Of a DNA stretch of 64,000 nt, positions 32,748-59,878 are shown one piece after another. Position 1 is the stretch's first letter. The number at the start of each line of letters is the position of its first letter. Source of the stretch: Heliomicrobium sp. (lineage in GTDB: Bacteria > Acidobacteriota > Blastocatellia > RBC074); contig JAJNQA010000027.1 in NCBI GenBank assembly GCA_021155085.1, forward strand, positions 30,058 through 94,057. Reading direction: 5' to 3'. The notes below the pieces were generated by a model, which was given only the letters and a program-made list of their open reading frames with translations, ran no database searches and was not told where the DNA came from. Position numbers and translations under genes: made by a program.

Positions 32748-34019
32748 TCAGACGAAAATGTTCAAGTTGTTGAAATTTCCACCCAGCACCTGTGCCGATT
32801 CCGCCGCCGAGTTGCCGAACCAGCCTTGAATGATTGTTGCGTACACGTCGCGGAAATCAATGTTGTGTTTCAAATTGCCTTGTAACAGATCAGTCAGGTT
32901 CGGATCAGTGCCGTACATCCCGCCTTTCACTTTGCCGCCGATGCAATAAAGATTATTTGCCGTTCCGTGATCGGTGCCGTTGCTGGCGTTGTCGGCGACG
33001 CGGCGGCCAAATTCAGACCAGACCAGAATCAGCACTTTGTCGCCGATGCCGTGCGCGACCAGATCGTCATAAAACGCCTTCAACCCCTCGCTTAAGGTTT
33101 TGTGCAGATTCGGCAGATCCTTGTCCTGATTGGCGTGCGTGTCGTAGCCGCCCTGGCTGATGTAAAAGACGCGCGTGCCCAGTTTCGGGCTTGTCGAAGT
33201 CGCCATCTTGGCAATCAGCTTCAAGCCGCCGGCAAACTGATTGTTTGGATACTGCACGCTGCTCGAATAGCCGGTTGCGGCTTGTCCAACCGAATCGGAA
33301 CTGTTCAGCGCATCCAGCCAGGTGCTTTCGGCCAACTCCGCATAAGTTTTCGATGAAACCTCCGGATTGTCCCAGCGCGCGACGGCAAGCTGATTGTTGC
33401 GGTCGCCGTTGTAGCGGCCATCGGTGTTGAACGCATAACCCGACGGATTGCCTTGCGCGTCCGCGCCGATGCCGGAAATCTTCGCGCCCGGCGCATAAAG
33501 CGTTGTATTGACGCCGCCAATGCCCACCGTGTCGAGCGGATTGTTCCCGTTGCCGAACAGCAGCGAATGCCGCCCTAGCCAGCCTGATTGCGCCGTCACC
33601 GAAGGCGCGGGATCGCCGATGCGGTAAATGTTCCGCGAACCGTCGTGCGACAGATTCGGATTCGGATAATGTACGGATTGAATGACCGCCAGCTTGCCCG
33701 CGTCGGCAATCGGTTTGATTGCGCTCAAATTCGGCGACAAGCCCATCGTCGCTGAACCGTACAATGGCAAGACCTGATTTCGCGGAATCGCCAGCCGCGA
33801 ACGAAAGCTGGCGTACGTGCTGTACTGTCCGAGCGGCACAATCGTGTTGAGCGGATCATTCCCGCCGCCGAGTTCGACGACCACTAGAATTCTGTCTTCG
33901 GCGACCAATTCATGCCGCAAAGCTTCGACGACAGTCACACCGTTTGCCTGCCGGGGAAGAATCATTCCCGCGCCAATTGCGCCCGCACCAGTTTTGATGA
34001 AATCTCTTCGTGTGGTCAT
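32748..34019 (-). CDS. DUF1501 family protein (sulfatase-like, Tat signal)
   Basis: MTTRRDFIKTGAGAIGAG Tat signal; paired with DUF1800 upstream. Confidence 0.8.
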   Translation of the reverse strand: MTTRRDFIKTGAGAIGAGMILPRQANGVTVVEALRHELVAEDRILVVVELGGGNDPLNTIVPLGQYSTYASFRSRLAIPRNQVLPLYGSATMGLSPNLSAIKPIADAGKLAVIQSVHYPNPNLSHDGSRNIYRIGDPAPSVTAQSGWLGRHSLLFGNGNNPLDTVGIGGVNTTLYAPGAKISGIGADAQGNPSGYAFNTDGRYNGDRNNQLAVARWDNPEVSSKTYAELAESTWLDALNSSDSVGQAATGYSSSVQYPNNQFAGGLKLIAKMATSTSPKLGTRVFYISQGGYDTHANQDKDLPNLHKTLSEGLKAFYDDLVAHGIGDKVLILVWSEFGRRVADNASNGTDHGTANNLYCIGGKVKGGMYGTDPNLTDLLQGNLKHNIDFRDVYATIIQGWFGNSAAESAQVLGGNFNNLNIFV

Positions 34020-34037
34020 AAACTCCCCTTCGCAAAT

Positions 34038-34063
34038 GTGGGACAGGCTAAAGCCTGTCCCAC
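34038..34063. repeat. REP-like perfect palindrome GTGGGACAGGC-taaa-GCCTGTCCCAC
   Basis: 11-bp perfect stem, intergenic between DUF1800 and DUF1501. Confidence 0.85.
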
Positions 34064-34078
34064 GTTCAGAAATATTTC

Positions 34079-38917: not shown

Positions 38918-40216
38918 TCACATCAAAAAGCCCAGATTCGTGAATTGACCGTTGAGCACTTGTTGAGCCTCGGCAGCGGTGTTGCCGAACCAGCTTTGAA
39001 TGATCGTCGAATAGGCATCGCGGAAATCCAGATTGTTTTTCAGGTTTCCGTTTTGCAGATCGTTCAGTTTGGGGTCCGCGCCGTAGGTGCCGCCTTTGAC
39101 ACGGTCGCCGATGCAATAAATATTGTTGGCCTGGCCGTGATCGGTGCCGTCGCTGGCGTTGTCGGCGACACGGCGGCCAAATTCGGACCAGATCATAATC
39201 AGCGTTTTGTCAGCCAGATTATGCGCCACCAGGTCGTCGTAAAACGCTTTCACGGCTTCGGCCAACGCTCTATGCAACGTTGGCTGATCGTTGATTTGGT
39301 CAGCATGCGTGTCATAACCGCCCTGAGTGGCGTAAAAAACGCGCGAACCCAGTTGCGGATTGGTCGAGGTGGCCAGTTTGGCGATCAGTTTCAAGCCGGC
39401 GGCAAGGTTGTTGCCGGTTGGATACGTGATGGTGCTTTGGTAGGTTGCGGCAGCTTGCGCGACCAGGTCGGCGCTGTTCAGCGCATCAAGCTGGGTTGAC
39501 TCAGACAGATCAATGTAAGGTTTGTTGGATTGCGCGTTGTCAACGGTTCTGGCCACGGCGAGTTGATTGTTGCGGTCGCCCGTGTAGCGGTCATCCGTGC
39601 GGAAAAGATAACCGGAGGGATTGCCTTGCGCGTCATTGTTAATTCCAGAGATTTTCGCGCCCGGCGCATACAGCGTTGAATTGACGCCGCCGATGCCGAC
39701 CGTGTCCAGCGAATTCGTCCTGCTGCCGAACAGCGCCGAATGGCGGCCAATCCAGCCCGTGCCGCCCGCCGCCACGCTGCCGGAAGCATTGCCTTGCCGG
39801 TAGATCGAACGCGAGCCGTCGTGCGACAGGTTCGGATTCGGGTAATGGCACATTTGAATGACAGCCAGTTTGCCCGCGTCCGCAATGGGTTTGATCGCGC
39901 TGAGGTTCGGCGACAAGCCCATCGTCGTTGAACCGTACAGCGGCAGCACCTGTTCTTTCGGAATGGCGATGCGCGAACGGAAGCTGGCGTAGGTGTTGTA
40001 CTGTTGCAGCGGCACGATGGTGTTGAGCGGATCGTTGCCGCCGGCCAGTTCGATGATGACCAGGATTTTGTTGTCCGCCTGCAATTCGTCCCGCAGCATT
40101 TGCACCATTGCCTCGCCCCTGGCGTCGGGGTTGAAGACCGGCAGCAGCATTCCTGCACTGAGGCCTGCGCCAACTGCGGCCGTGCCTGTTTTGATGAAAT
40201 CTCTTCGCGTGGTCAT
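38918..40216 (-). CDS. DUF1501 family protein (paralog 2)
   Basis: MTTRRDFIKTGTAAVGAGLSAGMLLP Tat signal; about 60% identical to 32748-34019 product. Confidence 0.8.
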   Translation of the reverse strand: MTTRRDFIKTGTAAVGAGLSAGMLLPVFNPDARGEAMVQMLRDELQADNKILVIIELAGGNDPLNTIVPLQQYNTYASFRSRIAIPKEQVLPLYGSTTMGLSPNLSAIKPIADAGKLAVIQMCHYPNPNLSHDGSRSIYRQGNASGSVAAGGTGWIGRHSALFGSRTNSLDTVGIGGVNSTLYAPGAKISGINNDAQGNPSGYLFRTDDRYTGDRNNQLAVARTVDNAQSNKPYIDLSESTQLDALNSADLVAQAAATYQSTITYPTGNNLAAGLKLIAKLATSTNPQLGSRVFYATQGGYDTHADQINDQPTLHRALAEAVKAFYDDLVAHNLADKTLIMIWSEFGRRVADNASDGTDHGQANNIYCIGDRVKGGTYGADPKLNDLQNGNLKNNLDFRDAYSTIIQSWFGNTAAEAQQVLNGQFTNLGFLM

Positions 40217-40234
40217 AAAATCTCCTTCGCAATT

Positions 40235-40287
40235 GTGGGACAGGCTTCAGCCTGTCGTCAGTGCGGACAGGCTGAAGCCTGTCCCAC
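40235..40287. repeat. two head-to-head REP-like hairpins forming a 53-bp near-perfect super-palindrome
   Basis: GTGGGACAGGC-ttca-GCCTGTCgtcagtgcGGACAGGC-tgaa-GCCTGTCCCAC. Confidence 0.85.
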
Positions 40288-40302
40288 GTTCAGGAATGAC
40301 TT

Positions 40303-41808
40303 CTAAAAATTCTGGCATTCGGGCCGCGACAGCAGCAGATGAATCAAGCCGCGCACCTTTTTGTCTTTCGTCGTCGCATCCAGCGTGAACGTGCCGATGG
40401 ATCCGTTGTCGGTCTTTTTCAGATAATCCACCAGCGCCTGGCGGACGTTTGCCGCCAGCGGACGCTGGATCAGCAGGCTGATGAAGTAATCGGTGACTTG
40501 TTCGGCGGTGGCGTTGGCGCCAAGTCCGCCTGCGGCCAGTACCGTATCAATTGGAATGCCGGTGTTGCCCTGCGTGGTGCTGCGGTTGGTGGCCAGTGCA
40601 TTGGCGAAATTGTCCCGCGCCAGCAGTTGCGCGGTCGTAATCCATTCCTCCTTGCCGGGCCAGCCGAAAACATCCGGTGGATTCAGCAGCGCCATGCCCA
40701 TGGCGTCGAGCGTCGTCTGCTGTTGCTGGACACGCCCGCCGCCGTTCAAACCGCGCGTGATGATCGAAGCTTGAAGTTGCCGCACGGCGTTGACGACGTA
40801 ATACACAGGCCATTTGACCAGCGAATGAATGGCGCGTTCGGAATAGAACTCCTTGGTGTTGAGGAACAGATCGCGCAGGACGAGTTTGATGTTGAAGTTG
40901 TGGCGCAGGGTGACGGCGGCCATGTGCTCGACGACTGCTTCTTCGGGGTTTTCGTAGGCGAAATGTTCGAAGAGCTTTTTGCCGATCATCTTCGCGGCGA
41001 AGGTGCGCTGCGGTTCGTGGTCGAGAATCAAATCCACGATGTCGTCGCCGTTGAAATTGCGCACCACGCCGAAGACTGTCTTGTCGCCGTAATCGTGATT
41101 TCGCGTGGCCGGCGAGTTGTCGTTCGCATTCGGAGGAATGATGACGGCTTGTGCCGGATCAGTCAGCGGGCCGTTCGGATTGTTGTTGACCGGAACATCC
41201 GCGCCGCGCCGGATCGTCCAGCCGGTGAAAGCGCGCGCGGCTTGTTGCACGTCCGGCTCTGTGTAACCCCCCGCGAAGAAGGATTCCAGTCCGAGCATGA
41301 AAATCTCCAACTGCTCGCGGGCATAGTTTTCATTCGGGCTGCCTTTGATGTTCAGGTAGTTGTCCAGCCACCACAGCATTGCCGGGTCGCGGTTGATGGC
41401 TTTGCACATCGCGCGAAAGTCCCCGGTGGCGTATTGCCTGAAAAGCTGGTTTTGCCAGTACAGGTATTTGAGGCCGTTCGGCACGTTGACCTTGCTGGCC
41501 GCCGTTGCGAAATGATCATGCCAGAAAATGGTCATCCGCTCCTGCAGCGGGCGTTTGGTGAAGATCATCCGCGTCAGCCACCAGGAAGTGGTGTTATCCA
41601 GGTCGAGAATTTGAACGTCCAACCCGCCTCCGGTGGTGGTGGGTTGGGCCGGGACATTGGGCGATTCGGCGACGTTTTCGTAATTGATCAGTTGATCCAC
41701 CGTCGTCTCGAAGCCTTGTTTGAGGTAGTTGTTGATTTCGTCGGGACGCGCACCGAACGCGGCTCGACGCCACAGATGCGCCATTCTGTCATAGGCTGAT
41801 ACCGCCAT
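40303..41808 (-). CDS. DUF1800 family protein (paralog 2)
   Basis: MAVSAYDRMAHLWRRAAFGARPDE; AAGGAGGA SD. Confidence 0.8.
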   Translation of the reverse strand: MAVSAYDRMAHLWRRAAFGARPDEINNYLKQGFETTVDQLINYENVAESPNVPAQPTTTGGGLDVQILDLDNTTSWWLTRMIFTKRPLQERMTIFWHDHFATAASKVNVPNGLKYLYWQNQLFRQYATGDFRAMCKAINRDPAMLWWLDNYLNIKGSPNENYAREQLEIFMLGLESFFAGGYTEPDVQQAARAFTGWTIRRGADVPVNNNPNGPLTDPAQAVIIPPNANDNSPATRNHDYGDKTVFGVVRNFNGDDIVDLILDHEPQRTFAAKMIGKKLFEHFAYENPEEAVVEHMAAVTLRHNFNIKLVLRDLFLNTKEFYSERAIHSLVKWPVYYVVNAVRQLQASIITRGLNGGGRVQQQQTTLDAMGMALLNPPDVFGWPGKEEWITTAQLLARDNFANALATNRSTTQGNTGIPIDTVLAAGGLGANATAEQVTDYFISLLIQRPLAANVRQALVDYLKKTDNGSIGTFTLDATTKDKKVRGLIHLLLSRPECQNF

Positions 41809-48097: not shown

Positions 48098-49537
48098 ATG
48101 AATAACGAAAACGAGTTCGGCAAACCGCCGCTCCTTCGCTCGCTCAAACTGCGCGATCTGGTTCTGTTCAATTTGGTTGCGGTGCTGGGGTTGCGGCATC
48201 TGGCAATTTCGGCCAACTTTGGCCCCGGCGCGCTGGCGCTGTGGGGACTGGCCGCGCTCTTCTTTTTCATTCCCCAAGGTCTGGCCGTGATTGAACTGTC
48301 ATCGCGATTTCCGAATGAAGGTGGAATCTACTTCTGGACGAAGCAGGCGCTGGGAGAAGGGCATGGGTTTTTGTGTGGCTGGTGTTACTGGATCAACAAT
48401 GTTCTTTATTATCCCAATTTGCTGATCACGTCAGCCGTCATCGCGACGTACATTGTGGGAAAAGGCGACAGCGGATTCAGCGGCAATTGGAGCTACGTTT
48501 TGCCCGCGACGCTAATTGCGTTGTGGCTGGCAGTCATCATCAATATCGTGGGAGTAGGAACGGGAAAATGGCTGCAAAACGCCGGCGCGCTCGGCACGTA
48601 TATTCCCGGACTGATCATCATCCTGCTTGGCATCCACGGCGCAATCTACGGCCCGCCTGCCAACCCGATCAACATTTCCACGCTGATACCGGATTTTTCC
48701 GATTTTGGATCATTGAACTTGCTCTCTGCCGTGGCCTTCGCCTTTGCCGGGCTGGAACTCGTTTCGACTATGGGCGATGAAGTGGAGAACCCAAAGCGAA
48801 ATCTCTCCCGATCCGTTTTTATCGCCGCGCCACTGATTGCGATGGCTTATGTGCTGGGCACGGCAGCGCTGCTCTGGCTGGTGCCGAAACAGGAGATCAA
48901 TGTTGTTTCGGGAATTCTGCAAGCCATCTCAAACGGCATCGGCAATCTTCCTGGAAGCTTGCGCTGGCTGATGCCGGTTTGCGCCGCACTGTACACTCTC
49001 GGAAACATTGGCTGCGTCGGAGCCTGGCTGGTTGGACCGGCGCGCGTGGCATTTGTTATCGGTTTGGATCGTTACTTTCCGGCGTGGTTCGGCAAGGTGC
49101 ATCCAACATGGCGCACACCATATGCCGCCATTCTGGTTCAGGCTTCACTGGCAACGGTTTTTCTCCTGCTTTCAATTCTGGGGAAAGGCACCACCGTTGA
49201 AGAGGTTTATCTGATTTTGCTCGACACGCAAGTGCTGATCTACTTCATTCCCTATGCCTATCTCTTCATCGTTTTTCTGCTTCACCGCATACGCGCTGAA
49301 GCTTGCCAGGGCGTGGTACTCGCGCCAGGAGGTCGTCCAGGCGCGTGGATTATTGGGGGAAGCGGCCTGACTCTGACCTTGTTCGCGATGGTTGTCGCGA
49401 TGATTCCACCAGCGTCCAGTGCCCATCCAATGCTGTTTAGAGCAAAGGTGATCGGGGGCGCTCTGGGTTTCATTTTGGTCGGCGGAGTAATCTACGGAAT
49501 TGCAAAGATGAAGAATAAAGGCACTTTTAGGAAGTAA
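48098..49537 (+). CDS. APC-family amino acid permease
   Basis: 12 TM, APC signature FGPGALALWGLAALFFFIPQGL...NEGGIYFW. Confidence 0.8.
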   Translation: MNNENEFGKPPLLRSLKLRDLVLFNLVAVLGLRHLAISANFGPGALALWGLAALFFFIPQGLAVIELSSRFPNEGGIYFWTKQALGEGHGFLCGWCYWINNVLYYPNLLITSAVIATYIVGKGDSGFSGNWSYVLPATLIALWLAVIINIVGVGTGKWLQNAGALGTYIPGLIIILLGIHGAIYGPPANPINISTLIPDFSDFGSLNLLSAVAFAFAGLELVSTMGDEVENPKRNLSRSVFIAAPLIAMAYVLGTAALLWLVPKQEINVVSGILQAISNGIGNLPGSLRWLMPVCAALYTLGNIGCVGAWLVGPARVAFVIGLDRYFPAWFGKVHPTWRTPYAAILVQASLATVFLLLSILGKGTTVEEVYLILLDTQVLIYFIPYAYLFIVFLLHRIRAEACQGVVLAPGGRPGAWIIGGSGLTLTLFAMVVAMIPPASSAHPMLFRAKVIGGALGFILVGGVIYGIAKMKNKGTFRK

Positions 49538-50176: not shown

Positions 50177-50262
50177 GCCGGAGAAGCCCGATGGACGGGC
50201 GGCGGACTGTAAACCCGTTGTGGACGTGTGTCTGCAAGCAGGTTCGATTCCTGCCTCCGGCA
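50177..50262 (+). tRNA. tRNA-Tyr(GTA), type II (19-nt variable arm); non-canonical A8-A9
   Basis: acceptor GCCGGAG/CTCCGGC, loop CTGTAAA, T-arm GCAGG-TTCGATT-CCTGC, disc A; A31-C39 mismatch. Confidence 0.55.
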
Positions 50263-50267
50263 TTTCG

Positions 50268-50339
50268 GGGAGTATGTGGTAACTGGCAACCGGTCGGTCT
50301 CCAAAACCGATATTCCAGGTTCAAATCCTGGTACTCCTG
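50268..50339 (+). tRNA. tRNA-Trp(CCA)
   Basis: anticodon arm TCGGT-CTCCAAA-ACCGA, T-arm CCAGG-TTCAAAT-CCTGG, G1-U72; irregular D-arm. Confidence 0.6.
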
Positions 50340-50358
50340 TCAACGTTTGTAGCTATTT

Positions 50359-50446
50359 AGAGGCGTGGCGGAATTGGCAATCGCACTGGTCCGCTAAACC
50401 AGGGAGCTACTACAGTCTCGTGTGGGTTCGAGTCCCACCGCCTCTG
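50359..50446 (+). tRNA. tRNA-Ser(GCT), type II; C33 in anticodon loop
   Basis: acceptor AGAGGCG/CGCCTCT, CTGGT-CCGCTAA-ACCAG, long variable arm, T-arm GTGGG-TTCGAGT-CCCAC. Confidence 0.6.
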
Positions 50447-50465
50447 TCGAGTTATTTTTAGTTAC

Positions 50466-50550
50466 GGAGGGTTAGCCTAATTGGTAAGGCAGCAGTTTCG
50501 AAAACTGCCGTAGGATTGTACCTTTGAGGGTTCGAGTCCCTCACCCTCCT
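50466..50550 (+). tRNA. tRNA-Ser(CGA), type II; CCA encoded (50551-50553)
   Basis: acceptor GGAGGGT/ACCCTCC, GCAGT-TTCGAAA-ACTGC, T-arm GAGGG-TTCGAGT-CCCTC. Confidence 0.7.
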
Positions 50551-50600
50551 CCATTAAGTTCGGAGGTAATCAGCAACGCAATTAAGTTACAAATAGTTAT

Positions 50601-50684
50601 GGAGGGATGGCCGAATTGGCAAGGCAGTAGTTTTGAAAACTACCGGAGGTAACACTCTTCGGGGTTCGAGTCCCCGTCCCTTCG
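50601..50684 (+). tRNA. tRNA-Ser(TGA), type II
   Basis: acceptor GGAGGGA/TCCCTTC, GTAGT-TTTGAAA-ACTAC, T-arm CGGGG-TTCGAGT-CCCCG. Confidence 0.7.
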
Positions 50685-50715
50685 TCAGGTAGTAGTGTGT
50701 CTTGCAGGTACTTTG

Positions 50716-50791
50716 GCACTGGTAGCTCAGTTGGAATCAGAGCGCGGGCCTCCGAAGCCTGAGGTCGCGAGTTCGAGTCTCGCCCGGTGCA
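50716..50791 (+). tRNA. tRNA-Arg(CCG)
   Basis: acceptor GCACTGG/CCGGTGC, CGGGC-CTCCGAA-GCCTG, T-arm GCGAG-TTCGAGT-CTCGC. Confidence 0.7.
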
Positions 50792-50846
50792 TTTGACGTA
50801 AGTCGAACGTTATTTGAAAAGCCGGAAGTTATATTCAAATTACTTT

Positions 50847-50921
50847 GCGGGTGTGGCGCAAGCTGGTAGACGCGCAGCGCTAAGAACGCTGTTATTGGAG
50901 GTTCAAGTCCTCTCACCCGCA
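50847..50921 (+). tRNA. compact (type I, 75 nt) Leu-like tRNA with anticodon AAG
   Basis: acceptor GCGGGTG/CACCCGC, Leu-type D-arm GCG-CAAGCTGGTAGA-CGC, CAGCG-CTAAGAA-CGCTG, 5-nt variable loop, T-arm GGAGG-TTCAAGT-CCTCT, disc A. Confidence 0.5.
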
Positions 50922-50931
50922 TTTGGCGTTT

Positions 50932-51006
50932 GCAGGCATGGCGCAAATTGGCAGACGCGGCAGTCTCAAAAACTGCATTGTGAAGGTTCGAGTCCTTCTG
51001 CCTGCA
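50932..51006 (+). tRNA. compact (type I, 75 nt) Leu-like tRNA, anticodon CAA
   Basis: acceptor GCAGGCA/TGCCTGC, D-arm GCG-CAAATTGGCAGA-CGC, GCAGT-CTCAAAA-ACTGC, variable ATTGT, T-arm GAAGG-TTCGAGT-CCTTC, disc A. Confidence 0.55.
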
Positions 51007-51022
51007 TTATTGAAAGTTTTTT

Positions 51023-51098
51023 GTGGGTGTGGCGCAATTCAGGTAGACGCACCGGTCTCAGAAGCCGGTTGTTGGAGGTTCAAGTCCTCTCACCCACA
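51023..51098 (+). tRNA. compact (type I, 76 nt) Leu-like tRNA, anticodon CAG
   Basis: acceptor GTGGGTG/CACCCAC, D-arm GCG-CAATTCAGGTAGA-CGC, CCGGT-CTCAGAA-GCCGG, variable TTGTT, disc A. Confidence 0.55.
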
Positions 51099-51108
51099 TC
51101 AGATTTTC

Positions 51109-51181
51109 GTCGGCGTAGCTCAATTGGGAGAGCGCGAGTTTGCCAGGCTCGAGGTCGGGAGTTCAAACCTCCTCGCCGACT
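51109..51181 (+). tRNA. tRNA-Gly(GCC); CCA encoded (51182-51184)
   Basis: acceptor GTCGGCG/CGCCGAC, CGAGT-TTGCCAG-GCTCG, T-arm GGGAG-TTCAAAC-CTCCT, disc T. Confidence 0.7.
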
Positions 51182-51193
51182 CCATATTCTTTT

Positions 51194-51267
51194 GCACGCT
51201 TGGCCGAGTGGATTACAGGCGCAGGGCCGCAGCCCCTGTCAGGGCGGTTCGATTCCGTCAGCGTGCT
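51194..51267 (+). tRNA. Cys-like tRNA (anticodon GCA) with Ser-like D-arm, C33 and G37
   Basis: acceptor GCACGCT/AGCGTGC, disc T, CAGGG-CCGCAGC-CCCTG, T-arm GGCGG-TTCGATT-CCGTC. Confidence 0.45.
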
Positions 51268-51278
51268 TCATTTGATCT

Positions 51279-51354
51279 GCCGAAGTGGCGCAAACAGGCA
51301 GACGCGTGGAGCTTAAACCTCCGTCATTTGAGGGTTCGAGTCCCTCCTTCGGCA
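51279..51354 (+). tRNA. compact (type I, 76 nt) Leu-like tRNA, anticodon TAA
   Basis: acceptor GCCGAAG/CTTCGGC, D-arm GCG-CAAACAGGCAGA-CGC, TGGAG-CTTAAAC-CTCCG, short variable loop, T-arm GAGGG-TTCGAGT-CCCTC, disc A. Confidence 0.55.
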
Positions 51355-51365
51355 TTGTCAGTTTT

Positions 51366-51435
51366 TGCGGGTGGGCAAGTGCTCAGTTAGGTCTCATAAG
51401 CCTCGACTCGCTGGGAGCGTTACCCAGACCCGCAA
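51366..51435 (+). pseudogene. degenerate tRNA-like (CAT anticodon loop CTCATAA; non-canonical T-loop AGCGTTA)
   Basis: acceptor TGCGGGT/ACCCGCA pairs; D/T arms irregular. Confidence 0.3.
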
Positions 51436-51445
51436 TCAAAGTATG

Positions 51446-51521
51446 GGGCGCTGGGCAAGTCCGGTGAAGCCGTCGGTCTTTCAAGCTGAAGATCGTGGAT
51501 TCAAATCCCACACGACGCCCT
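51446..51521 (+). pseudogene. degenerate tRNA-like (TTC anticodon loop; T-stem A53-C61 mismatch and 2-nt insertion before 3' acceptor)
   Basis: GGGCGCTGGGCAAGT 5' end paralogous to 51366 copy; TCGGT-CTTTCAA-GCTGA. Confidence 0.3.
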
Positions 51522-51569
51522 ACTGTGTTTAGTTACATGATGTTACTCGGCAAGTAACTCGAAGTTACT

Positions 51570-51642
51570 GAGTCCGTGGCCTAATTGGCAAGGCAACAGC
51601 CTTTTAAGCTGTAAGATGTGGGTTCGATTCCCACCGGACTCA
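51570..51642 (+). tRNA. tRNA-Lys(TTT)
   Basis: acceptor GAGTCCG/CGGACTC, ACAGC-CTTTTAA-GCTGT, T-arm GTGGG-TTCGATT-CCCAC. Confidence 0.75.
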
Positions 51643-51660
51643 TTCGGATTTTTGAAGTTT

Positions 51661-51752
51661 GCTCCCGTAGCTTAAATGGAGAAAGCGGCGCGAAAATGAC
51701 GTGTCAGCATCGAGGGTCGCTGGAAATCCGGGTTCAAATCCCGGCTGGAGTC
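51661..51752 (+). tRNA. 92-nt tRNA-like gene with about 23-nt extra arm and non-canonical anticodon loop (AAAATGA); paralog of 51774 gene
   Basis: acceptor GCTCCCG/CTGGAGT (one C-U mismatch), D-arm GCTT-AAATGGAGA-AAGC, T-arm CCGGG-TTCAAAT-CCCGG. Confidence 0.35.
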
Positions 51753-51773
51753 TTTGTTTTTGGCTGCTGATTG

Positions 51774-51863
51774 GCTCCTGTAGCTCAACAGGCAGAGCGG
51801 CACGCTTATAACGTGTAAGCACCAGATCGGTGCGTGATCCGGGTTCGAATCCCGGCGGGAGCA
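51774..51863 (+). tRNA. 90-nt Ile-like tRNA, anticodon TAT, with about 22-nt stem-loop variable arm
   Basis: acceptor GCTCCTG/CGGGAGC, D-arm GCTC-AACAGGCA-GAGC, GCACG-CTTATAA-CGTGT, extra arm GCACC-agatc-GGTGC, T-arm CCGGG-TTCGAAT-CCCGG. Confidence 0.45.
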
Positions 51864-51874
51864 TCAGGATTTCT

Positions 51875-51949
51875 GGCGGGTGTAGCTCAGGCAGGCAGAG
51901 CGTCTGGCTGTGAACCAGAAAGCCGCCGGTTCAAATCCGGTCACTCGCC
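51875..51949 (+). tRNA. tRNA-His(GTG) with genome-encoded G-1
   Basis: G-1 + GCGGGTG/CACTCGC, disc C pairs G-1; TCTGG-CTGTGAA-CCAGA; T-arm GCCGG-TTCAAAT-CCGGT. Confidence 0.75.
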
Positions 51950-51967
51950 CTGATTTTTGAAGGTCTT

Positions 51968-52039
51968 TGGGATGTCGTCTAACTGGCAGGACGGTAGTCT
52001 TTGAAGCTATCTGTCGAGGTTCGAATCCTCGCATCCCGG
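51968..52039 (+). tRNA. tRNA-Gln(TTG), U1
   Basis: acceptor TGGGATG/CATCCCG, GTAGT-CTTTGAA-GCTAT, T-arm CGAGG-TTCGAAT-CCTCG. Confidence 0.65.
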
Positions 52040-52043
52040 TTTT

Positions 52044-52116
52044 GCACCTGAAGCTCAGTTGGCAGAGCACGCGGTTGATAACCGCGCGGTCGAAGGTTCG
52101 AGTCCTTCCGGGTGCA
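52044..52116 (+). tRNA. tRNA-Ile(GAT)
   Basis: acceptor GCACCTG/CGGGTGC, CGCGG-TTGATAA-CCGCG, T-arm GAAGG-TTCGAGT-CCTTC. Confidence 0.75.
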
Positions 52117-52126
52117 TCGAATTTGT

Positions 52127-52200
52127 GGGGCGTTGGTGTAGATGGTGAACACGCTCGGCTTTCAATCGAGAGATGGCCGGTTCGAGTCCGGTACGCCCTA
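52127..52200 (+). tRNA. tRNA-Glu(TTC)
   Basis: acceptor GGGGCGT/ACGCCCT, CTCGG-CTTTCAA-TCGAG, T-arm GCCGG-TTCGAGT-CCGGT. Confidence 0.7.
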
Positions 52201-52212
52201 CTCAAGTTTTAT

Positions 52213-52286
52213 GGGATCGTGGGCCAGTTGGAGTGGCTGCAGCCCTGTCAAGGCTGAGATCACGGGTTCGAGTCCCGTCGGTCCCG
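52213..52286 (+). tRNA. tRNA-Asp(GTC)
   Basis: acceptor GGGATCG/CGGTCCC, CAGCC-CTGTCAA-GGCTG, T-arm ACGGG-TTCGAGT-CCCGT. Confidence 0.75.
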
Positions 52287-52302
52287 TTTAGGATTTGAAA
52301 AT

Positions 52303-52375
52303 GGATCGGTAACTCAATGGTCAGAGTGCCTGCCTCTTAAGCAGGAAGTTGTGGGTTCAAGTCCCACCCGATCCA
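52303..52375 (+). tRNA. tRNA-Lys(CTT); CCA encoded (52376-52378)
   Basis: acceptor GGATCGG/CCGATCC, CCTGC-CTCTTAA-GCAGG, T-arm GTGGG-TTCAAGT-CCCAC. Confidence 0.75.
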
Positions 52376-52387
52376 CCAAAAAGTTTT

Positions 52388-52460
52388 TACAGGGTAGCTC
52401 AGTTGGCAGAGCGCCGGTCTGTTAAACCGGTCCGCGCGGGTTCGAGTCCCGCCCCTGTAG
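52388..52460 (+). tRNA. tRNA-Asn(GTT)
   Basis: acceptor TACAGGG/CCCTGTA, CCGGT-CTGTTAA-ACCGG, T-arm GCGGG-TTCGAGT-CCCGC. Confidence 0.75.
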
Positions 52461-52465
52461 CTTTT

Positions 52466-52542
52466 CAGAGTGTAGTTGCGGTTTGCGCAGAGCGCACGGC
52501 CCGGGCCCGTGAGGTCGCTCACTTCGAATCCTGCCACTCTGA
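52466..52542 (+). pseudogene. degenerate tRNA-like (acceptor CAGAGTG/CACTCTG pairs; anticodon hairpin CACGG-CCCGGGC-CCGTG; T-stem does not pair)
   Basis: TTCGAAT T-loop present but flanks unpaired. Confidence 0.3.
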
Positions 52543-52617
52543 TTTTAGCGGCGAATGCTGATGGAACTACATCTTGGAAAATGAACGTTTCATCAAATTT
52601 TTGTCGCCGCTTTTTTC

Positions 52618-52690
52618 GTGAGCGAAGCGCTAATGGCAGCGTGCTGGTCTTCCAAACCGGAGGTAGCGGGTTCGATCCCCGCCGCTCACT
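52618..52690 (+). tRNA. tRNA-Gly(TCC)
   Basis: acceptor GTGAGCG/CGCTCAC, CTGGT-CTTCCAA-ACCGG, T-arm GCGGG-TTCGATC-CCCGC; preceded by 8-bp-stem hairpin + T6 (52551-52616). Confidence 0.75.
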
Positions 52691-52695
52691 TTTTT

Positions 52696-52767
52696 GCTGG
52701 TGTAGCTCAACGGATGAGCCGCCGTCTCGTAAGCGGCAGGATATGGGTTCGAATCCCATCGCCAGCT
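52696..52767 (+). tRNA. tRNA-Thr(CGT)
   Basis: acceptor GCTGGTG/CGCCAGC, GCCGT-CTCGTAA-GCGGC, T-arm ATGGG-TTCGAAT-CCCAT. Confidence 0.7.
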
Positions 52768-52772
52768 TTGAT

Positions 52773-52844
52773 TGGGAGATCGTCTAATTGGCAGGATGGC
52801 AGATTCTGACTCTGTTGATTGTGGTTCGAATCCACATCTCCCAG
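52773..52844 (+). tRNA. tRNA-Gln(CTG), U1
   Basis: acceptor TGGGAGA/TCTCCCA, GCAGA-TTCTGAC-TCTGT, T-arm TGTGG-TTCGAAT-CCACA. Confidence 0.7.
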
Positions 52845-52850
52845 TTTTTT

Positions 52851-52923
52851 AGGAACGTAGCTCAGTGGCTAGAGCATTGGTCTTACAAACCAGAGGCCGT
52901 GGGTTCGAGTCCCACCGTTCCTA
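52851..52923 (+). tRNA. tRNA-Val(TAC)
   Basis: acceptor AGGAACG/CGTTCCT, TTGGT-CTTACAA-ACCAG, T-arm GTGGG-TTCGAGT-CCCAC; followed by 15-bp x2 tandem TTGCCCAATGCTTAT (52926-52955). Confidence 0.75.
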
Positions 52924-52965
52924 TTTTGCCCAATGCTTATTTGCCCAATGCTTATTTGAAAGCCT

Positions 52966-53038
52966 GGGATCGTAGCCAAACTGGAAAGGCGCCAGTCTTG
53001 CAAACTGGAAATTGTGGGTTCGAGCCCCACCGGTTCCA
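52966..53038 (+). tRNA. tRNA-Ala(TGC) with G3-U70 identity pair
   Basis: acceptor GGGATCG/CGGTTCC, CCAGT-CTTGCAA-ACTGG, T-arm GTGGG-TTCGAGC-CCCAC. Confidence 0.75.
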
Positions 53039-53048
53039 TTCTGATTTT

Positions 53049-53120
53049 CTGGGTGTGGGGCAGTGGCTGCCCACTTGCCTTGGGAGCAAGCCGACGCAGG
53101 TTCGAGTCCTGCCACCCAGA
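53049..53120 (+). tRNA. tRNA-Pro(TGG)
   Basis: acceptor CTGGGTG/CACCCAG, CTTGC-CTTGGGA-GCAAG, T-arm GCAGG-TTCGAGT-CCTGC. Confidence 0.75.
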
Positions 53121-53126
53121 CTTTAT

Positions 53127-53203
53127 GTTCGTGTAGCTCAGTGGAAATTTAGAGCGCTGGTCTACGAAACCAGAGGCCGAAGGTTCGAATCCTTCCACGA
53201 ACA
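53127..53203 (+). tRNA. tRNA-Arg(ACG)
   Basis: acceptor GTTCGTG/CACGAAC, CTGGT-CTACGAA-ACCAG, T-arm GAAGG-TTCGAAT-CCTTC. Confidence 0.75.
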
Positions 53204-53211
53204 TCAAATTT

Positions 53212-53283
53212 GGTTGGTTAGCACAACTGGCAGTGCGCTCGGCTGAAGCCCGAACGGACGGGGTTCGAGTCCTCGACCAACCA
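53212..53283 (+). tRNA. tRNA-Phe(GAA)
   Basis: acceptor GGTTGGT/ACCAACC, CTCGG-CTGAAGC-CCGAA, T-arm CGGGG-TTCGAGT-CCTCG; followed by 7-bp-stem hairpin 53290-53318. Confidence 0.7.
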
Positions 53284-53324
53284 TCAAATCAAATCTCCGA
53301 TTTCAAATTGGAGATTCGAGATGG

Positions 53325-53399
53325 GGTGATGTAGCTCAGTGGAATCAGAGCGACTGCCTCCTAAGCAGTAGGCCGTGAGTTCAAATCTCACCATCGCCA
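53325..53399 (+). tRNA. tRNA-Arg(CCT)
   Basis: acceptor GGTGATG/CATCGCC, ACTGC-CTCCTAA-GCAGT, T-arm GTGAG-TTCAAAT-CTCAC. Confidence 0.75.
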
Positions 53400-53407
53400 C
53401 TTCAAAT

Positions 53408-53481
53408 GTCCGCATAGCTCAGTTGGAGGCAGCACCCGCTCGGTACGCGGGAGGACGCCGGTTCGATTCCGGCTGCGGGCT
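53408..53481 (+). tRNA. tRNA-Thr(GGT); apparent C33 and 3-bp D-stem
   Basis: acceptor GTCCGCA/TGCGGGC, CCCGC-TCGGTAC-GCGGG, T-arm GCCGG-TTCGATT-CCGGC. Confidence 0.55.
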
Positions 53482-53497
53482 TAACCTGATAATCTAC

Positions 53498-53573
53498 GGG
53501 TCTGTCGTCTAATTGGAATCAAGGCGTCCGGCTTCTAACCGGGATGATGCAGGTTCGAGTCCTGCCAGGCCCT
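53498..53573 (+). tRNA. tRNA-Arg(TCT)
   Basis: acceptor GGGTCTG/CAGGCCC, TCCGG-CTTCTAA-CCGGG, T-arm GCAGG-TTCGAGT-CCTGC. Confidence 0.7.
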
Positions 53574-53597
53574 TCTTGAGCAATCAACGGAGTTGTT

Positions 53598-54155
53598 ATG
53601 GTAATCAGCAGAAAAGTCTTGCTACTCAACGCTTCTTACGAACCGCTCAGTGTGGTGACTGCGCCGAAGGCGTTGACGCTAGTTTTCAGGCACGTGGCCG
53701 AAGTGCTGGAGGCGGATCAAGGACACGTGCTGCGTTCGCCACGGTTTGTTTTCCAGGTGCCGTCGGTGATCCGGTTGACGCAATACATCAATATCCGCTC
53801 GCGGCAAAACCGCGTGGCCAATCGCCATCGGATTCTGGCGCGTGACCATTACCGCTGCCAGTATTGCGGCAAGCGTGGAAGTGCCTTTGAACTGACGCTT
53901 GATCACATCCTACCCAGATCACGTGGCGGTCGAACAGTGGCCGAAAACCTGGTTGCGTCTTGCCAGGCTTGTAACAACCGCAAAGGTGACCGGACGCCGG
54001 AAGAAGCCCGGATGCCTTTGCTGACTAATCCGGCGGCGTTGTTTTATGGATTGGAGCGGGTGGAGTTGCGGCAGGCGGCCGCGAATCGTCCGGAATGGAG
54101 AAAATATCTTTTCCTCGAACACGCGGAAGAGGAACTGGCGGTAATCTCCGCCTGA
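53598..54155 (+). CDS. HNH endonuclease
   Basis: ACGGAG SD; HNH motif DHYRCQYCGKRGSAFELTLDHILPRSRGG...NLVASCQACNNRKGDRT. Confidence 0.8.
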   Translation: MVISRKVLLLNASYEPLSVVTAPKALTLVFRHVAEVLEADQGHVLRSPRFVFQVPSVIRLTQYINIRSRQNRVANRHRILARDHYRCQYCGKRGSAFELTLDHILPRSRGGRTVAENLVASCQACNNRKGDRTPEEARMPLLTNPAALFYGLERVELRQAAANRPEWRKYLFLEHAEEELAVISA

Positions 54156-54315
54156 GGTTCCCAGTCGTCGCTGGCGCTGATTCGAGCAATGGAGTCTGTG
54201 TCGTTCTGCTGCCCGAATCGGCGCTGGCGGGCGAATTTTTTGAACTACATTTTTTGTCTGTCTTGACAGTTTCGCGAACCATCTGCTACTTTCCCGGCTT
54301 CGTTATTAGACATAC

Positions 54316-54390
<75 letters not shown>

Positions 54391-59210: not shown

Positions 59211-59450
59211 ATGGAACAACAAACACTGACGATTTCGCAGGCTCTTTATCGCAGGCTGGAAACCGAGGCACAGCTTCAAAGCTTGAGTATTGAACAGTTG
59301 ATTGAACAGTGGGAACACCAACTTTCAGAGATCAAGCGACGGCAGGAAGCAGGGCGTGTGATCAAAGAAACTTTCAAGAAAATGAAAGCCAAATACGGAC
59401 TCATGCCGGACAGTGCCGAACTAATTCGCGAGGATCGGGACAGCAGATGA
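59211..59450 (+). CDS. ribbon-helix-helix type II antitoxin (VapB-like)
   Basis: MEQQTLTISQALYRRLETEAQLQSLSIEQLIEQ RHH pattern; ATGA overlap with PIN gene. Confidence 0.55.
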   Translation: MEQQTLTISQALYRRLETEAQLQSLSIEQLIEQWEHQLSEIKRRQEAGRVIKETFKKMKAKYGLMPDSAELIREDRDSR

Positions 59451-59878
59451 CAAATCTGGTGATAGACAGTGGCGTTGCGGTGAAATGGTTTGTGAACGAG
59501 CCAAACTCCGCGGAAGCTGAACGCATTTTCGATGAGTATCTGGCCAGCGAGATTTTCTTATTGGCTCCGGACTTTATCTATGCTGAGTTCGGCAACATCA
59601 TCTGGAAAAAGCAGACGCTTCAGGGATTCAATCCTACAGACGCGGCCAAGGTTATTGATGACTTTCGCACGCGGGTCACAATTGCTCTGACTTCAACGGC
59701 AGATCTGCTTGAAGATGCCTACCAATTGGCTGTCACTCACAGGCGAACCGTTTACGACATGCTTTACCTGGCCTTGAGTCTTCGCGAAGGCTGCCAATTC
59801 GTTACCGCCGATGATCGTCTGGTGAACGCAATCGGCAGTCAATTCCCAAACATCGTTCGATTGGCCGATTGGCCGTAA
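59447..59878 (+). CDS. PIN-domain toxin (VapC-like)
   Basis: MTNLVIDSGVAVKWF...PIN acidic residues; start overlaps antitoxin stop. Confidence 0.7.
   Translation: MTNLVIDSGVAVKWFVNEPNSAEAERIFDEYLASEIFLLAPDFIYAEFGNIIWKKQTLQGFNPTDAAKVIDDFRTRVTIALTSTADLLEDAYQLAVTHRRTVYDMLYLALSLREGCQFVTADDRLVNAIGSQFPNIVRLADWP

What the first reader, a model, noticed from the sequence alone, without database searches (positions are those of the whole stretch)
50847..50921. Leu-like tRNA with A34 (anticodon AAG)
The anticodon loop reads CTAAGAA, giving AAG. In bacteria A34 (deaminated to inosine by TadA) is essentially restricted to tRNA-Arg(ACG), which is also present at 53127. A Leu-AAG tRNA is the eukaryotic solution for CUN codons and is rare in bacteria.
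Basis: partly seen in the sequence, partly recalled or inferred. Interest (0 to 1): 0.6.

Follow-up and report, generated by a model that had tools for sequence, protein, structure and literature searches.

The report
Armless A34 leucine tRNA in array
The A34 leucine tRNA is real, but it is one gene in a 33-gene mobile-type tRNA array in a soil Acidobacteriota chromosome, lacks the long arm that bacterial leucine tRNAs normally have, and arose from a G34 version by a change that recurs in bacterial and phage arrays and looks tuned for conversion to inosine.

Summary
Window 50847-50921 encodes a well-formed tRNA with anticodon loop CUAAGAA (A34-A35-G36), supported by ARAGORN, Rfam, thermodynamic folding and covariation.

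The context changes its meaning:
- It is gene 7 of a 33-gene, 3.4-kb long tRNA array (L-array). The adjacent HNH endonuclease is homologous to the one beside the Anabaena PCC 7120 trn array. The host is a Blastocatellia-type Acidobacteriota chromosome.
- Like all four Leu tRNAs of the array, it lacks the long variable arm (type I) but keeps the LeuRS identity elements.
- Orthologous arrays at the same chromosomal site carry a type I Leu(GAG) in this slot, so AAG is a G34-to-A34 anticodon shift.
- The shift recurs in at least four lineages, including phage contigs. It replaces GAG, and it always comes with an Arg(ACG)-like loop (U33, R37, A38).
- CUAAGAA is a loop that even E. coli TadA partly deaminates.

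Most likely this is a functional array tRNA-Leu that host TadA converts at least partly to IAG, reading CUU, CUC and CUA. A34 tRNA-Leu is already known in Lactobacillales. The type I body, the array and phage setting, and the phylum are new. Modification, charging and expression are untested.

The parts
50847..50921 (+). tRNA-Leu(AAG), type I: 75 nt with a 5-nt variable loop UUAUU, discriminator A73, and no encoded CCA
   Evidence: ARAGORN; Rfam 54 bits; fold; covariation across 18 homologues
50880..50886 (+). Anticodon loop CUAAGAA, with A34 at 50882. It is identical to the array's Arg(ACG) loop CUACGAA except at position 35
   Evidence: Sequence; loop table for the whole array
50177..53573 (+). 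Long tRNA array (L-array): 33 co-oriented tRNA genes in 3.4 kb. It includes one degenerate copy (51661-51752), plus a decayed Glu(UUC) at about 51445-51521 that ARAGORN does not call
   Evidence: conserved gene order in related arrays; tRNA genes far better conserved than spacers
50932..51006 (+). tRNA-Leu(CAA), type I
51023..51098 (+). tRNA-Leu(CAG), type I; the closest paralogue of the AAG gene, with the same T-arm
51279..51354 (+). tRNA-Leu(UAA), type I
53127..53203 (+). tRNA-Arg(ACG), the canonical TadA substrate, loop CUACGAA
53598..54155 (+). HNH endonuclease (185 aa) that accompanies the array; a homologue of Anabaena PCC 7120 all8564
   Evidence: Pfam HNH_5/HNH; 38% identity, E=2e-32, to the HNH next to the Anabaena trn array; homologues beside arrays in many phyla and phages
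54316..54387 (+). tRNA-Val(GAC), the last tRNA of the unit, lying after the HNH gene in all syntenic arrays
48098..49537 (+). Amino-acid permease; the conserved chromosomal left neighbour of the array
   Evidence: Pfam; the same neighbour in L064, L067, L058 and L120
54745..56751 (+). thrS (threonyl-tRNA synthetase); the conserved right neighbour, followed by infC-rpmI-rplT-pheS-pheT
   Evidence: Pfam; gene tables of L001/L002, which include L35; ThrRS 92% and 81% identical downstream of HNH in Blastocatellia MAG loci L105 and L062

Best explanation
Shown: the gene is a structurally constrained tRNA of the Leu type. U8, A14, A15, G18G19, the T-loop and A73 are invariant, and its D-arm matches classical bacterial tRNA-Leu, but it lacks the long variable arm. 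It is one of four such type I Leu genes in a 33-gene long tRNA array with an HNH endonuclease. The array occupies the same site (permease | array-HNH-Val | thrS) in several Blastocatellia genomes. In the orthologous arrays this slot holds a type I tRNA-Leu(GAG), so the AAG gene is a G34-to-A34 anticodon shift that replaces GAG as the array's CUY reader. The same shift recurs in other arrays and in phage contigs, and each time it comes with an Arg(ACG)-like loop. Inferred: the tRNA is transcribed with the array, leucylated by the host LeuRS (which does not read the anticodon), and deaminated at A34, at least partly, by the host's TadA, because its loop CUAAGAA mimics the tRNA-Arg(ACG) substrate at six of seven positions. 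As IAG it would read CUU, CUC and CUA, and together with Leu(CAG) would cover the CUN box, the same A34+C34 arrangement the array uses for Arg (ACG+CCG). Like other L-arrays, the array as a whole is probably a supernumerary tRNA set used under translational stress or tRNA depletion, not the housekeeping set.
For: Fold and identity.
Array and HNH: with 38% identity to Anabaena all8564. The Anabaena array also has four type I Leu genes, and 23 of its 26 tRNAs are aminoacylated in vivo (PMC8421152), so at least one type I Leu is charged there.
Purifying selection: tRNA genes are 79-98% identical between arrays while spacers are 21-80%.
Shared chromosomal site in Blastocatellia MAGs.
GAG in the orthologous slot, and AAG+GAG in tandem in L085/L094.
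Recurrence: 29 distinct type I Leu(AAG) sequences in 16 clusters, including phage contigs, at three or more positions on the array tree.
Replacement of GAG: 2 of 9 AAG loci carry GAG against 41 of 49 others, p=6e-4.
Loop context: 4 of 4 AAG clusters have U33+R37+A38 against 0 of 15 GAG clusters, p=2.6e-4.
A34 enrichment: 7 of 56 Leu-NAG genes against 8 of 538 in other G34 families, p=1.6e-4.
Literature: E. coli TadA partly (about 15%) deaminates an AAG anticodon placed in the CUAAGAA loop, and changes at positions 32, 37 or 38 abolish it (PMC11066159). S. pyogenes TadA accepts YUAMGRA, which this loop fits (PMC11472039).
Against: No RNA data exist, so expression, charging and I34 are all untested.
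E. coli TadA did not edit S. pyogenes tRNA-Leu(AAG) in vitro, and it edited only about 15% of the orthogonal AAG tRNA.
The host TadA is not in the window, and no array locus encodes a deaminase.
E. coli LeuRS could not charge the S. coelicolor type I tRNA-Leu (PMC6614811).
L-arrays are often poorly expressed.
Lineage B has A32, which falls outside the TadA motif.
The array lacks Met/fMet and Thr(UGU), so it is not a self-sufficient set, and CUA is only 1.7% of host Leu codons.
The lineage counts are small and the trees rest on short sequences.
Confidence: 0.55

Rival explanations
1. A34 stays unmodified. The G34-to-A34 change is a nearly neutral anticodon shift tolerated because the array is redundant with the host's own tRNA-Leu genes. 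The tRNA then reads mainly CUU, reads CUC weakly, and does not read CUA.
For: Arrays do shift anticodons; for example the CAG paralogue has become UAG in L099. Tran 2016 predicted such shifts in redundant arrays. Strict TadA enzymes reject A35 in some contexts. O. oeni keeps unmodified A34 tRNAs. Unmodified A34-AAG reads CUU about 3:1 over CUC.
Against: A34 is about 9-fold enriched in Leu-NAG over other G34 families. It always comes with a TadA-like loop, which the GAG relatives do not have. AAG replaces GAG rather than adding to it, which would leave CUC, at 12% of host Leu codons, poorly served by the array. The exact loop CUAAGAA is partly edited even by E. coli TadA.
Confidence: 0.25
2. 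The A34 anticodon, the armless body and the odd loops of array tRNAs are escape variants. On this reading the array is an anti-toxin or anti-defence tRNA reserve whose members are selected to resist anticodon nucleases or variable-arm-directed tRNases aimed at host tRNAs, and decoding by A34 or I34 is secondary.
For: Phage tRNAs carry anticodon-loop changes predicted to block VapC, PrrC and colicin-type nucleases (PMC10264068). tRNA arrays have been called putative anti-defence systems (PMC12803027). The same type I Leu and Leu(AAG) genes occur in phage contigs and near an HNH homologue in an Acidobacteria jumbo phage. Many array Leu(GAG), Ser, Cys and Thr tRNAs have C33. A PIN (VapC-like) gene lies 5 kb away.
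Against: No nuclease specific for tRNA-Leu(GAG) or for the Leu variable arm is identified here. The convergence of AAG loops on the TadA substrate motif is explained better by deamination than by escape. This reading is not exclusive of the best explanation.
Confidence: 0.1
3. The gene is a silent relic: a decaying pseudogene in a cryptic, unexpressed array.
For: L-arrays can be transcriptionally silent. The window's array contains decayed copies, 'Ile(AAU)' at 51661-51752 and Glu(UUC) at about 51445-51521. No sigma-70-type promoter was found, although that scan is weak evidence for this phylum.
Against: The cloverleaf is perfect with compensatory changes. tRNA genes are conserved far above spacers. 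The AAG allele is retained in diverged arrays (L131, L168, L089). Identity elements are invariant.
Confidence: 0.07
4. The tRNA is not charged with leucine. Loss of the variable arm switches identity, so it would insert another amino acid at CUY codons.
For: The long variable arm is missing. E. coli LeuRS fails on the S. coelicolor type I tRNA-Leu. Aberrant gel mobility of some Anabaena array tRNAs raised the possibility of misacylation.
Against: All E. coli-type Leu identity elements other than the arm are present and invariant (element list from PMC6614811). All four Leu isoacceptors share the same body in dozens of arrays, which is hard to reconcile with proteome-wide recoding. No mistranslation was detected in Anabaena.
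Confidence: 0.03

Closest known systems
tRNA-Leu(AAG), edited to IAG, of Lactobacillales (Streptococcus, Lactobacillaceae, Oenococcus oeni), modified by TadA
   Same: Same anticodon. It replaces rather than accompanies tRNA-Leu(GAG). The anticodon loop fits the relaxed TadA motif YUAMGRA. tRNA-Arg(ACG) co-resides.
   Different: Those are type II (the S. pyogenes tRNA is 89 nt), chromosomal housekeeping tRNAs, and confined almost entirely to Bacilli. This one is type I (75 nt), sits in a long tRNA array, is in Acidobacteriota, has A37 rather than G37, and its modification is unproven.
L-arrays / tRNA array units, e.g. the trn operon of Anabaena sp. PCC 7120 plasmid delta (Santamaria-Gomez 2021; Tran 2016)
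   Same: A long, dense, co-oriented, non-periodic tRNA array. The adjacent HNH endonuclease is homologous (38% identity). All Leu tRNAs are type I. Distribution is patchy across phyla.
   Different: The Anabaena array uses Leu(GAG)+Leu(UAG), not AAG. It is plasmid-borne and has a different gene order. Here the array is chromosomal and syntenic across Blastocatellia genomes. Stress induction has been shown only for Anabaena.
Type I tRNA-Leu(CAA) of Streptomyces coelicolor (PMC6614811)
   Same: A bacterial tRNA-Leu with a 5-nt variable loop that is a genuine LeuRS substrate in its host.
   Different: That is a single isoacceptor coexisting with type II Leu tRNAs, and it needs a particular LeuRS leucine-specific domain. 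Here all four array isoacceptors are type I, and the LeuRS of the host is unknown.
Eukaryotic tRNA-Leu(IAG) with ADAT2/3
   Same: The A34-sparing strategy, with IAG plus CAG covering CUN.
   Different: A heterodimeric, sequence-tolerant deaminase and type II tRNAs. There is no evolutionary link to this gene, which derives from a bacterial- or phage-type Leu(GAG).
Phage tRNA clusters with HNH or Seg homing endonucleases (T4 segB region; Tunturiibacter phage Tunturi_5)
   Same: tRNA clusters linked to homing endonucleases. The HNH of Tunturi_5 is 44% identical, and type I Leu tRNAs are present.
   Different: Those are phage genomes, not a chromosomal resident, and Tunturi_5 has Leu(GAG) of type II and no AAG.

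Membership tests
tRNA (Rfam RF00005) | Cloverleaf with a 7-nt anticodon loop and conserved T-loop and D-loop elements | tested here: met
   54 bits against a gathering score of 29, over the full-length model; ARAGORN; 99.4% pairing and 9 of 20 covarying pairs
Bacterial tRNA-Leu (LeuRS identity set as listed in PMC6614811) | Discriminator A73 | tested here: met
   A at 50921, invariant in 18 of 18 homologues
Bacterial tRNA-Leu (LeuRS identity set as listed in PMC6614811) | U8-A14, the A15-U48 Levitt pair, and G18G19 with U54/U55/C56/A58 elbow contacts | tested here: met
   T8, A14, A15, G19G20 (= G18G19), T50 (= U48), T56 T57 C58 and A60 are invariant in alignment A1.
Bacterial tRNA-Leu (LeuRS identity set as listed in PMC6614811) | Long variable arm (type II architecture) | tested here: not met
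   The variable loop is 5 nt (UUAUU). A deletion of about 10 nt relative to type II Leu is visible. All four array Leu tRNAs are 75-76 nt
Bacterial tRNA-Leu (LeuRS identity set as listed in PMC6614811) | Leucylation by LeuRS | not testable with these tools
   Indirect only: at least one of the four type I Leu tRNAs of the Anabaena array must be among the 23 of 26 tRNAs charged in vivo
TadA substrate (A34 to I34) | A34 in a 7-nt loop on an anticodon stem, with U33 and G36 | tested here: met
   Loop CUAAGAA on a 5-bp stem
TadA substrate (A34 to I34) | Strict E. coli-type motif YUACGAA | tested here: not met
   Position 35 is A, not C; the other six positions match (motif from PMC11472039)
TadA substrate (A34 to I34) | Relaxed S. 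pyogenes-type motif YUAMGRA | tested here: met
   CUAAGAA fits it. The same loop with an AAG anticodon was about 15% edited in E. coli
TadA substrate (A34 to I34) | Inosine actually present at position 34, and a TadA with suitable specificity in the genome | not testable with these tools
   No RNA data. No deaminase motif in the window or in any array locus. The rest of the genome is not available
tRNA array unit / L-array | At least 20 tRNA genes at 2 or more per kb (Tran 2016), co-oriented with short spacers and non-periodic | tested here: met
   33 genes in 3,397 bp, all on the + strand, with no repeating unit
tRNA array unit / L-array | Adjacent HNH homing endonuclease conserved with the array | tested here: met
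   Pfam HNH. Homologues lie beside arrays in more than 30 loci. 38% identity to Anabaena all8564
tRNA array unit / L-array | Patchy, HGT-like distribution across phyla | tested here: met
   Related type I Leu arrays occur in Acidobacteriota, Planctomycetota, Chloroflexota, Actinomycetes, Cyanobacteria, Proteobacteria, Firmicutes and viral contigs. Within Blastocatellia, however, the site is conserved, which indicates vertical inheritance
tRNA array unit / L-array | Supernumerary to a housekeeping tRNA set; induced by translational stress | not testable with these tools
   Only 64 kb of the genome is available. The absence of Met/fMet tRNAs in the array implies that other tRNA genes exist elsewhere

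The most novel reading that the evidence does not exclude
Long tRNA arrays and phage tRNA clusters carry a structurally re-engineered parallel tRNA set: Leu without the variable arm, an Ile(UAU)-type tRNA with one, and C33 variants. Within this set tRNA-Leu(AAG) has arisen repeatedly by recruiting the host's TadA. Wobble inosine would then have expanded beyond tRNA-Arg many times outside Firmicutes, driven by mobile elements, and TadA in Acidobacteriota and other hosts would tolerate A35 and so could also edit UAAG sites in mRNA.
Probability: 0.3. Interest if true: 0.7.

Novelty: new variant of a known kind. Interest (0 to 1): 0.5.

Why it matters
How wobble inosine spread from one tRNA (Arg) in bacteria to eight in eukaryotes is an open question, and the known bacterial intermediates (tRNA-Leu IAG) come from a single clade, Bacilli. 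These arrays offer many independent natural replicates of the first step. A G34 tRNA-Leu becomes A34 and, each time, acquires an Arg(ACG)-like loop. This happens in Acidobacteriota, other phyla and phages, and on an unusual armless tRNA-Leu body. If the tRNAs are modified, TadA specificity is broader across bacteria than assumed and mobile tRNA arrays are a route for new decoding strategies. If they are not modified, they are a rare natural case of unmodified A34 decoding. The armless Leu tRNAs also bear on LeuRS recognition and on the proposed role of arrays as reserves against tRNA-targeting stress.

Tried and rejected
- Phage origin of the window: no megablast match. The neighbours are ordinary chromosomal genes such as thrS, infC, rplT, pheST, Ser/Thr kinases and DUF1800/DUF1501, so this was rejected.
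- Alternative fold or anticodon: none found.
- My first type I Leu search pattern had wrong gap lengths. It missed even the window's own genes and wasted one viral scan. I corrected it and validated it on the window.
- The second, AAG-specific pattern fixes loop positions 33-38, so its hits were not used for the loop-convergence test. Only the loop-agnostic set was used.
- About 20 of the 43 metagenome hits had no ARAGORN tRNA call and were ignored.
- The sigma-70 promoter scan found nothing and was judged uninformative for Acidobacteriota.
- An array-encoded or window-encoded TadA-like deaminase was searched for by motif and not found.
- The 'Ile(AAU)' call at 51661-51752 was considered as a third A34 tRNA and rejected. 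Its loop is AAAAUGA with no U33, its fold z-score is -0.07, it scores only 33.8 bits against a gathering score of 29 in the sensitive Rfam search, with its anticodon arm unaligned, and was not listed in the first Rfam scan. It is a decayed tandem copy of the long-arm tRNA(UAU).
- Literature searches found no prior description of type I tRNA-Leu in phage or array tRNAs. The library is incomplete, so this is not proof of absence.
- The supplementary data of the Anabaena paper, needed to see which Leu tRNAs were charged, are not held.
- The first 50 kb of the Anabaena delta plasmid has no tRNAs; the array is in the last 5.4 kb.
- TadA residue analysis was not attempted, because the host TadA is unavailable and no determinants of A35 tolerance are known.

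Full report
**1. The observation**

The sequence at 50847-50921 is called tRNA-Leu(aag) by ARAGORN (50846-50922). It matches the Rfam tRNA model over its full length at 54.0 bits, against a gathering score of 29. The minimum-free-energy fold gives the acceptor, anticodon and T arms and a 7-nt loop CUAAGAA, so the anticodon is A34-A35-G36, with A34 at window position 50882. No alternative fold yields another anticodon.

**2.

The gene is the seventh of 33 co-oriented tRNA genes packed into 50177-53573. These are followed by a 185-aa HNH endonuclease (53598-54155), a tRNA-Val(GAC), and then thrS-infC-rpmI-rplT-pheS-pheT. Upstream lie an amino-acid permease, an S15 peptidase, Ser/Thr kinases and DUF1800/DUF1501 pairs.

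There is no phage match. The window is therefore a bacterial chromosome. The identical HNH protein occurs on 15 metagenome contigs with the same neighbours.

tblastn against loci fetched later shows the same arrangement in MAGs labelled Blastocatellia (titles):
- L105 and L062 have HNH followed by ThrRS at 92% and 81% identity.
- L064 has the S15 peptidase at 84% identity plus the permease.

The host is therefore a Blastocatellia-type Acidobacteriota, and within this clade the array has been inherited in place.

**3. What kind of array**

The unit meets the published definition of a tRNA array unit or L-array: at least 20 genes at 2 or more per kb, co-oriented and non-periodic (PMC4758250; PMC8421152). 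That literature reports a conserved HNH homing endonuclease beside L-arrays.

I fetched the experimentally studied Anabaena PCC 7120 trn array (L183). Its neighbouring HNH (all8564) is 38% identical to the window's (E=2e-32). HNH homologues lie beside related arrays in more than 30 loci from many phyla and in phages. The best phage hit is a jumbo phage of an Acidobacteriota host, Tunturiibacter phage Tunturi_5.

Between orthologous arrays the tRNA genes are far better conserved than the spacers (L105: 89% against 54%; L062: 79% against 21%). The genes are therefore under purifying selection.

**4. The tRNA lacks the Leu variable arm**

All four Leu tRNAs of the array (AAG, CAA, CAG, UAA) are 75-76 nt long with a 5-6 nt variable loop. 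Bacterial tRNA-Leu is normally type II.

U8, A14, A15, G18G19, U48, the T-loop and A73 are invariant in 18 homologues. These are the E. coli LeuRS identity elements listed in PMC6614811.

In the library searched, the only characterised bacterial type I tRNA-Leu is S. coelicolor tRNA-Leu(CAA). That paper calls it rare and shows that E. coli LeuRS cannot charge it.

A pattern requiring the Leu D-arm and a short distance to the T-loop found 76 genome contigs and 46 viral contigs. The genome contigs were mostly Acidobacteriota, with Planctomycetota, Chloroflexota, Actinomycetes, Cyanobacteria, Proteobacteria and Firmicutes also represented. Nearly all of the hits are tRNA arrays.

The Anabaena array also has four type I Leu genes. 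Since 23 of its 26 tRNAs are aminoacylated in vivo, at least one type I Leu is charged there. Armless Leu tRNAs are therefore a hallmark of this class of arrays. I found no paper stating this.

**5. Origin of the AAG anticodon**

A family of arrays shares the order Tyr-Trp-Ser-Ser-Ser-Arg(ccg)-Leu(NAG)-Leu(caa)-Leu(cag)-Gly-Cys-Leu(taa)-...-Arg(acg)-Phe-Arg(cct)-Thr-Arg(tct)-[HNH]-Val(gac). The slot varies as follows:

| Slot content | Loci |
|---|---|
| GAG | L058, L062, L064, L067, L105 |
| AAG | window, L131, L168, L089/L149 |
| AAG and GAG in tandem | L085, L094 |

The window's gene is 96% identical to L131, 91% to L089, and 88-90% to GAG genes of syntenic arrays. L168 has the AAG loop but keeps the GAG-type variable loop and acceptor stem.

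The cloverleaf of this slot family is 99.4% paired, with 9 of 20 pairs covarying. A tree built from the other shared tRNAs places AAG in at least three positions. The tree is rough, because the sequences are short.

An AAG-specific pattern found 23 further metagenome loci and 4 viral loci with type I Leu(AAG). In all there are 29 distinct sequences in 16 clusters at 85% identity, including a human-gut phage array.

AAG and GAG are nearly mutually exclusive within arrays: 2 of 9 AAG loci carry GAG against 41 of 49 other loci (p=6e-4). This mirrors the pattern in Lactobacillales.

**6. Is A34 likely deaminated?**

This cannot be shown from sequence, but four lines of evidence point the same way.

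(a) The loop CUAAGAA differs from the array's Arg(ACG) loop CUACGAA only at position 35. It fits the relaxed TadA motif YUAMGRA of S. pyogenes, though not the strict YUACGAA motif.

(b) In E. coli, an orthogonal tRNA with anticodon AAG in exactly this loop context was about 15% converted to inosine by the native TadA. Any tested change at position 32, 37 or 38 abolished the modification (PMC11066159).

(c) In the loop-agnostic dataset all 4 independent AAG clusters have U33+R37+A38, against 0 of 15 GAG clusters, whose loops are UUGAGAG, CCGAGAA, UUGAGGU and so on (p=2.6e-4).

(d) A34 is about 9-fold enriched in the Leu-NAG family relative to all other G34 families (7 of 56 against 8 of 538, p=1.6e-4). 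The only other well-formed ANG case, His(AUG) in CUAUGAA, is another anticodon that E. coli TadA modifies.

As IAG the tRNA would read CUU, CUC and CUA. With Leu(CAG) it would cover the CUN box, the same A34+C34 scheme as the array's Arg(ACG)+Arg(CCG). Arrays with GAG have no CUA reader.

The evidence against is as follows:
- E. coli TadA failed on S. pyogenes tRNA-Leu(AAG) in vitro.
- O. oeni keeps unmodified A34 Thr and Ser tRNAs.
- Lineage B has A32.
- The host TadA is unknown, and neither the window nor any array locus encodes a deaminase.
- CUA is only 1.7% of host Leu codons.
- The array lacks Met/fMet and Thr(UGU), so it is not self-sufficient.

**7. Comparison with what is known, and verdict**

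tRNA-Leu(AAG) edited to IAG is established in O. oeni, S. pyogenes and several Lactobacillales families. Those tRNAs are type II and housekeeping, and almost all such genes are reported from Bacilli. L-arrays with an HNH gene are also established.

What is new is the combination: an A34 Leu tRNA on an armless type I body, inside a long array in Acidobacteriota, arising repeatedly from type I Leu(GAG) in bacterial and phage arrays with a convergent TadA-like loop. I classify it as a new variant of a known kind and give it interest 0.5.

The best explanation is a functional array tRNA-Leu that is at least partly I34-modified. I give it 0.55. The main rival is unmodified A34 as a near-neutral shift, at 0.25. 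Nuclease escape, silent relic and non-Leu identity are less likely. tRNA-seq of position 34 would decide between them.

Noticed in passing
window 51774-51863 (+); also L058, L061, L062, L064, L067, L085, L088, L089, L095, L099, L100, L105, L110, L116, L120, L122, L168, and viral L017/L056: A 90-nt 'tRNA-Ile(UAU)' with a long variable arm on an otherwise type I-like body (4-bp D-stem, A73). It folds as a clean cloverleaf (z=-3.5) and scores 63 bits against Rfam. It is conserved across arrays, with 17 of 24 pairs covarying, including the variable-arm stem. In bacteria a type II body is expected only for Leu, Ser, Tyr and Sec, yet in these same arrays Leu has lost the arm. Its amino-acid identity is unknown. 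I found no description of such a tRNA.
   Followed up: partly
window 51661-51752 (+): ARAGORN's 'tRNA-Ile(AAU)' (92 nt) is a decayed tandem copy of the long-arm tRNA(UAU). Its loop is AAAAUGA without U33, its fold is no better than shuffled sequence, and it scores only 33.8 bits in the sensitive Rfam search. It is not a genuine third A34 tRNA.
   Followed up: partly
window 51445-51521 and 51366-51440 (+): The 210-bp gap between Leu(UAA) and Lys(UUU) holds a decayed tRNA-Glu(UUC). It is a partial Rfam hit at 51452-51511 (34.6 bits) and is still called as Glu in the 99%-identical array L005. There is also an unexamined tRNA-like stretch with a CUCAUAA loop.
   Followed up: partly
window 50358-50448 (Ser-GCU), 51194-51267 (Cys-GCA), 53408-53481 (Thr-GGU); many Leu(GAG) genes in L062, L086, L088, L095 and others: Several G34 tRNAs of these arrays have C33 instead of the near-universal U33, with loops CCGCUAA, CCGCAGC, UCGGUAC and CCGAGAA. 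Array Leu(CAG) and Leu(AAG) also have A37 rather than G37, which from memory (not checked here) is the norm for CUN-reading Leu tRNAs.
   Followed up: partly
L001 1-9500 (JGI 3300014202 contig Ga0181609_131234): In a strain with the identical HNH protein, only the last five tRNAs of the array remain next to HNH. Upstream is an element encoding a phage-type integrase, HTH regulators, an Acb5 (anti-CBASS) homologue and an IS605 OrfB-like HTH. It apparently inserted into or replaced most of the array.
   Followed up: no
window 59309-59878 (+), between pheS and pheT: A PIN-domain (VapC-like) gene (Pfam E=4e-10), with a small upstream ORF, sits between pheS and pheT in the window and in L011. It is absent from the otherwise 99%-identical L001/L002, so it is a strain-variable putative toxin-antitoxin module about 5 kb from the tRNA array. 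From general knowledge (not checked here), VapC toxins are often tRNases.
   Followed up: partly
window 50177-54387 (whole array): The array has no tRNA-Met, initiator tRNA or CAU-type tRNA-Ile, and no Thr(UGU). It otherwise covers every amino acid except Met.
   Followed up: partly
L131 (CAZMXG010000222.1, labelled uncultured Heliomicrobium sp.): This array has the same gene order as the window, 94% tRNA identity and the same Leu(AAG), yet it is binned to a Firmicutes MAG. Either the 11.6-kb contig is mis-binned or the array was transferred recently across phyla.
   Followed up: no
Loop-agnostic locus set L012-L133: Ten distinct tRNA-Arg(GCG) genes (G34 in the CGN box) occur in these arrays alongside 30 Arg(ACG) genes. 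The arrays also contain sporadic Ser(ACU), Thr(AGU) and His(AUG) genes and suppressor-like CUA anticodons.
   Followed up: no
window 32748-35611 and 38918-41808 (-): Two DUF1800/DUF1501 gene pairs lie within 9 kb; for the first, only the DUF1800 gene (34079-35611) was scanned and the adjacent 423-aa ORF is assumed to be its DUF1501 partner. They sit next to TIG/IPT-repeat and carboxypeptidase-regulatory-domain proteins. They are unrelated to the finding.
   Followed up: no
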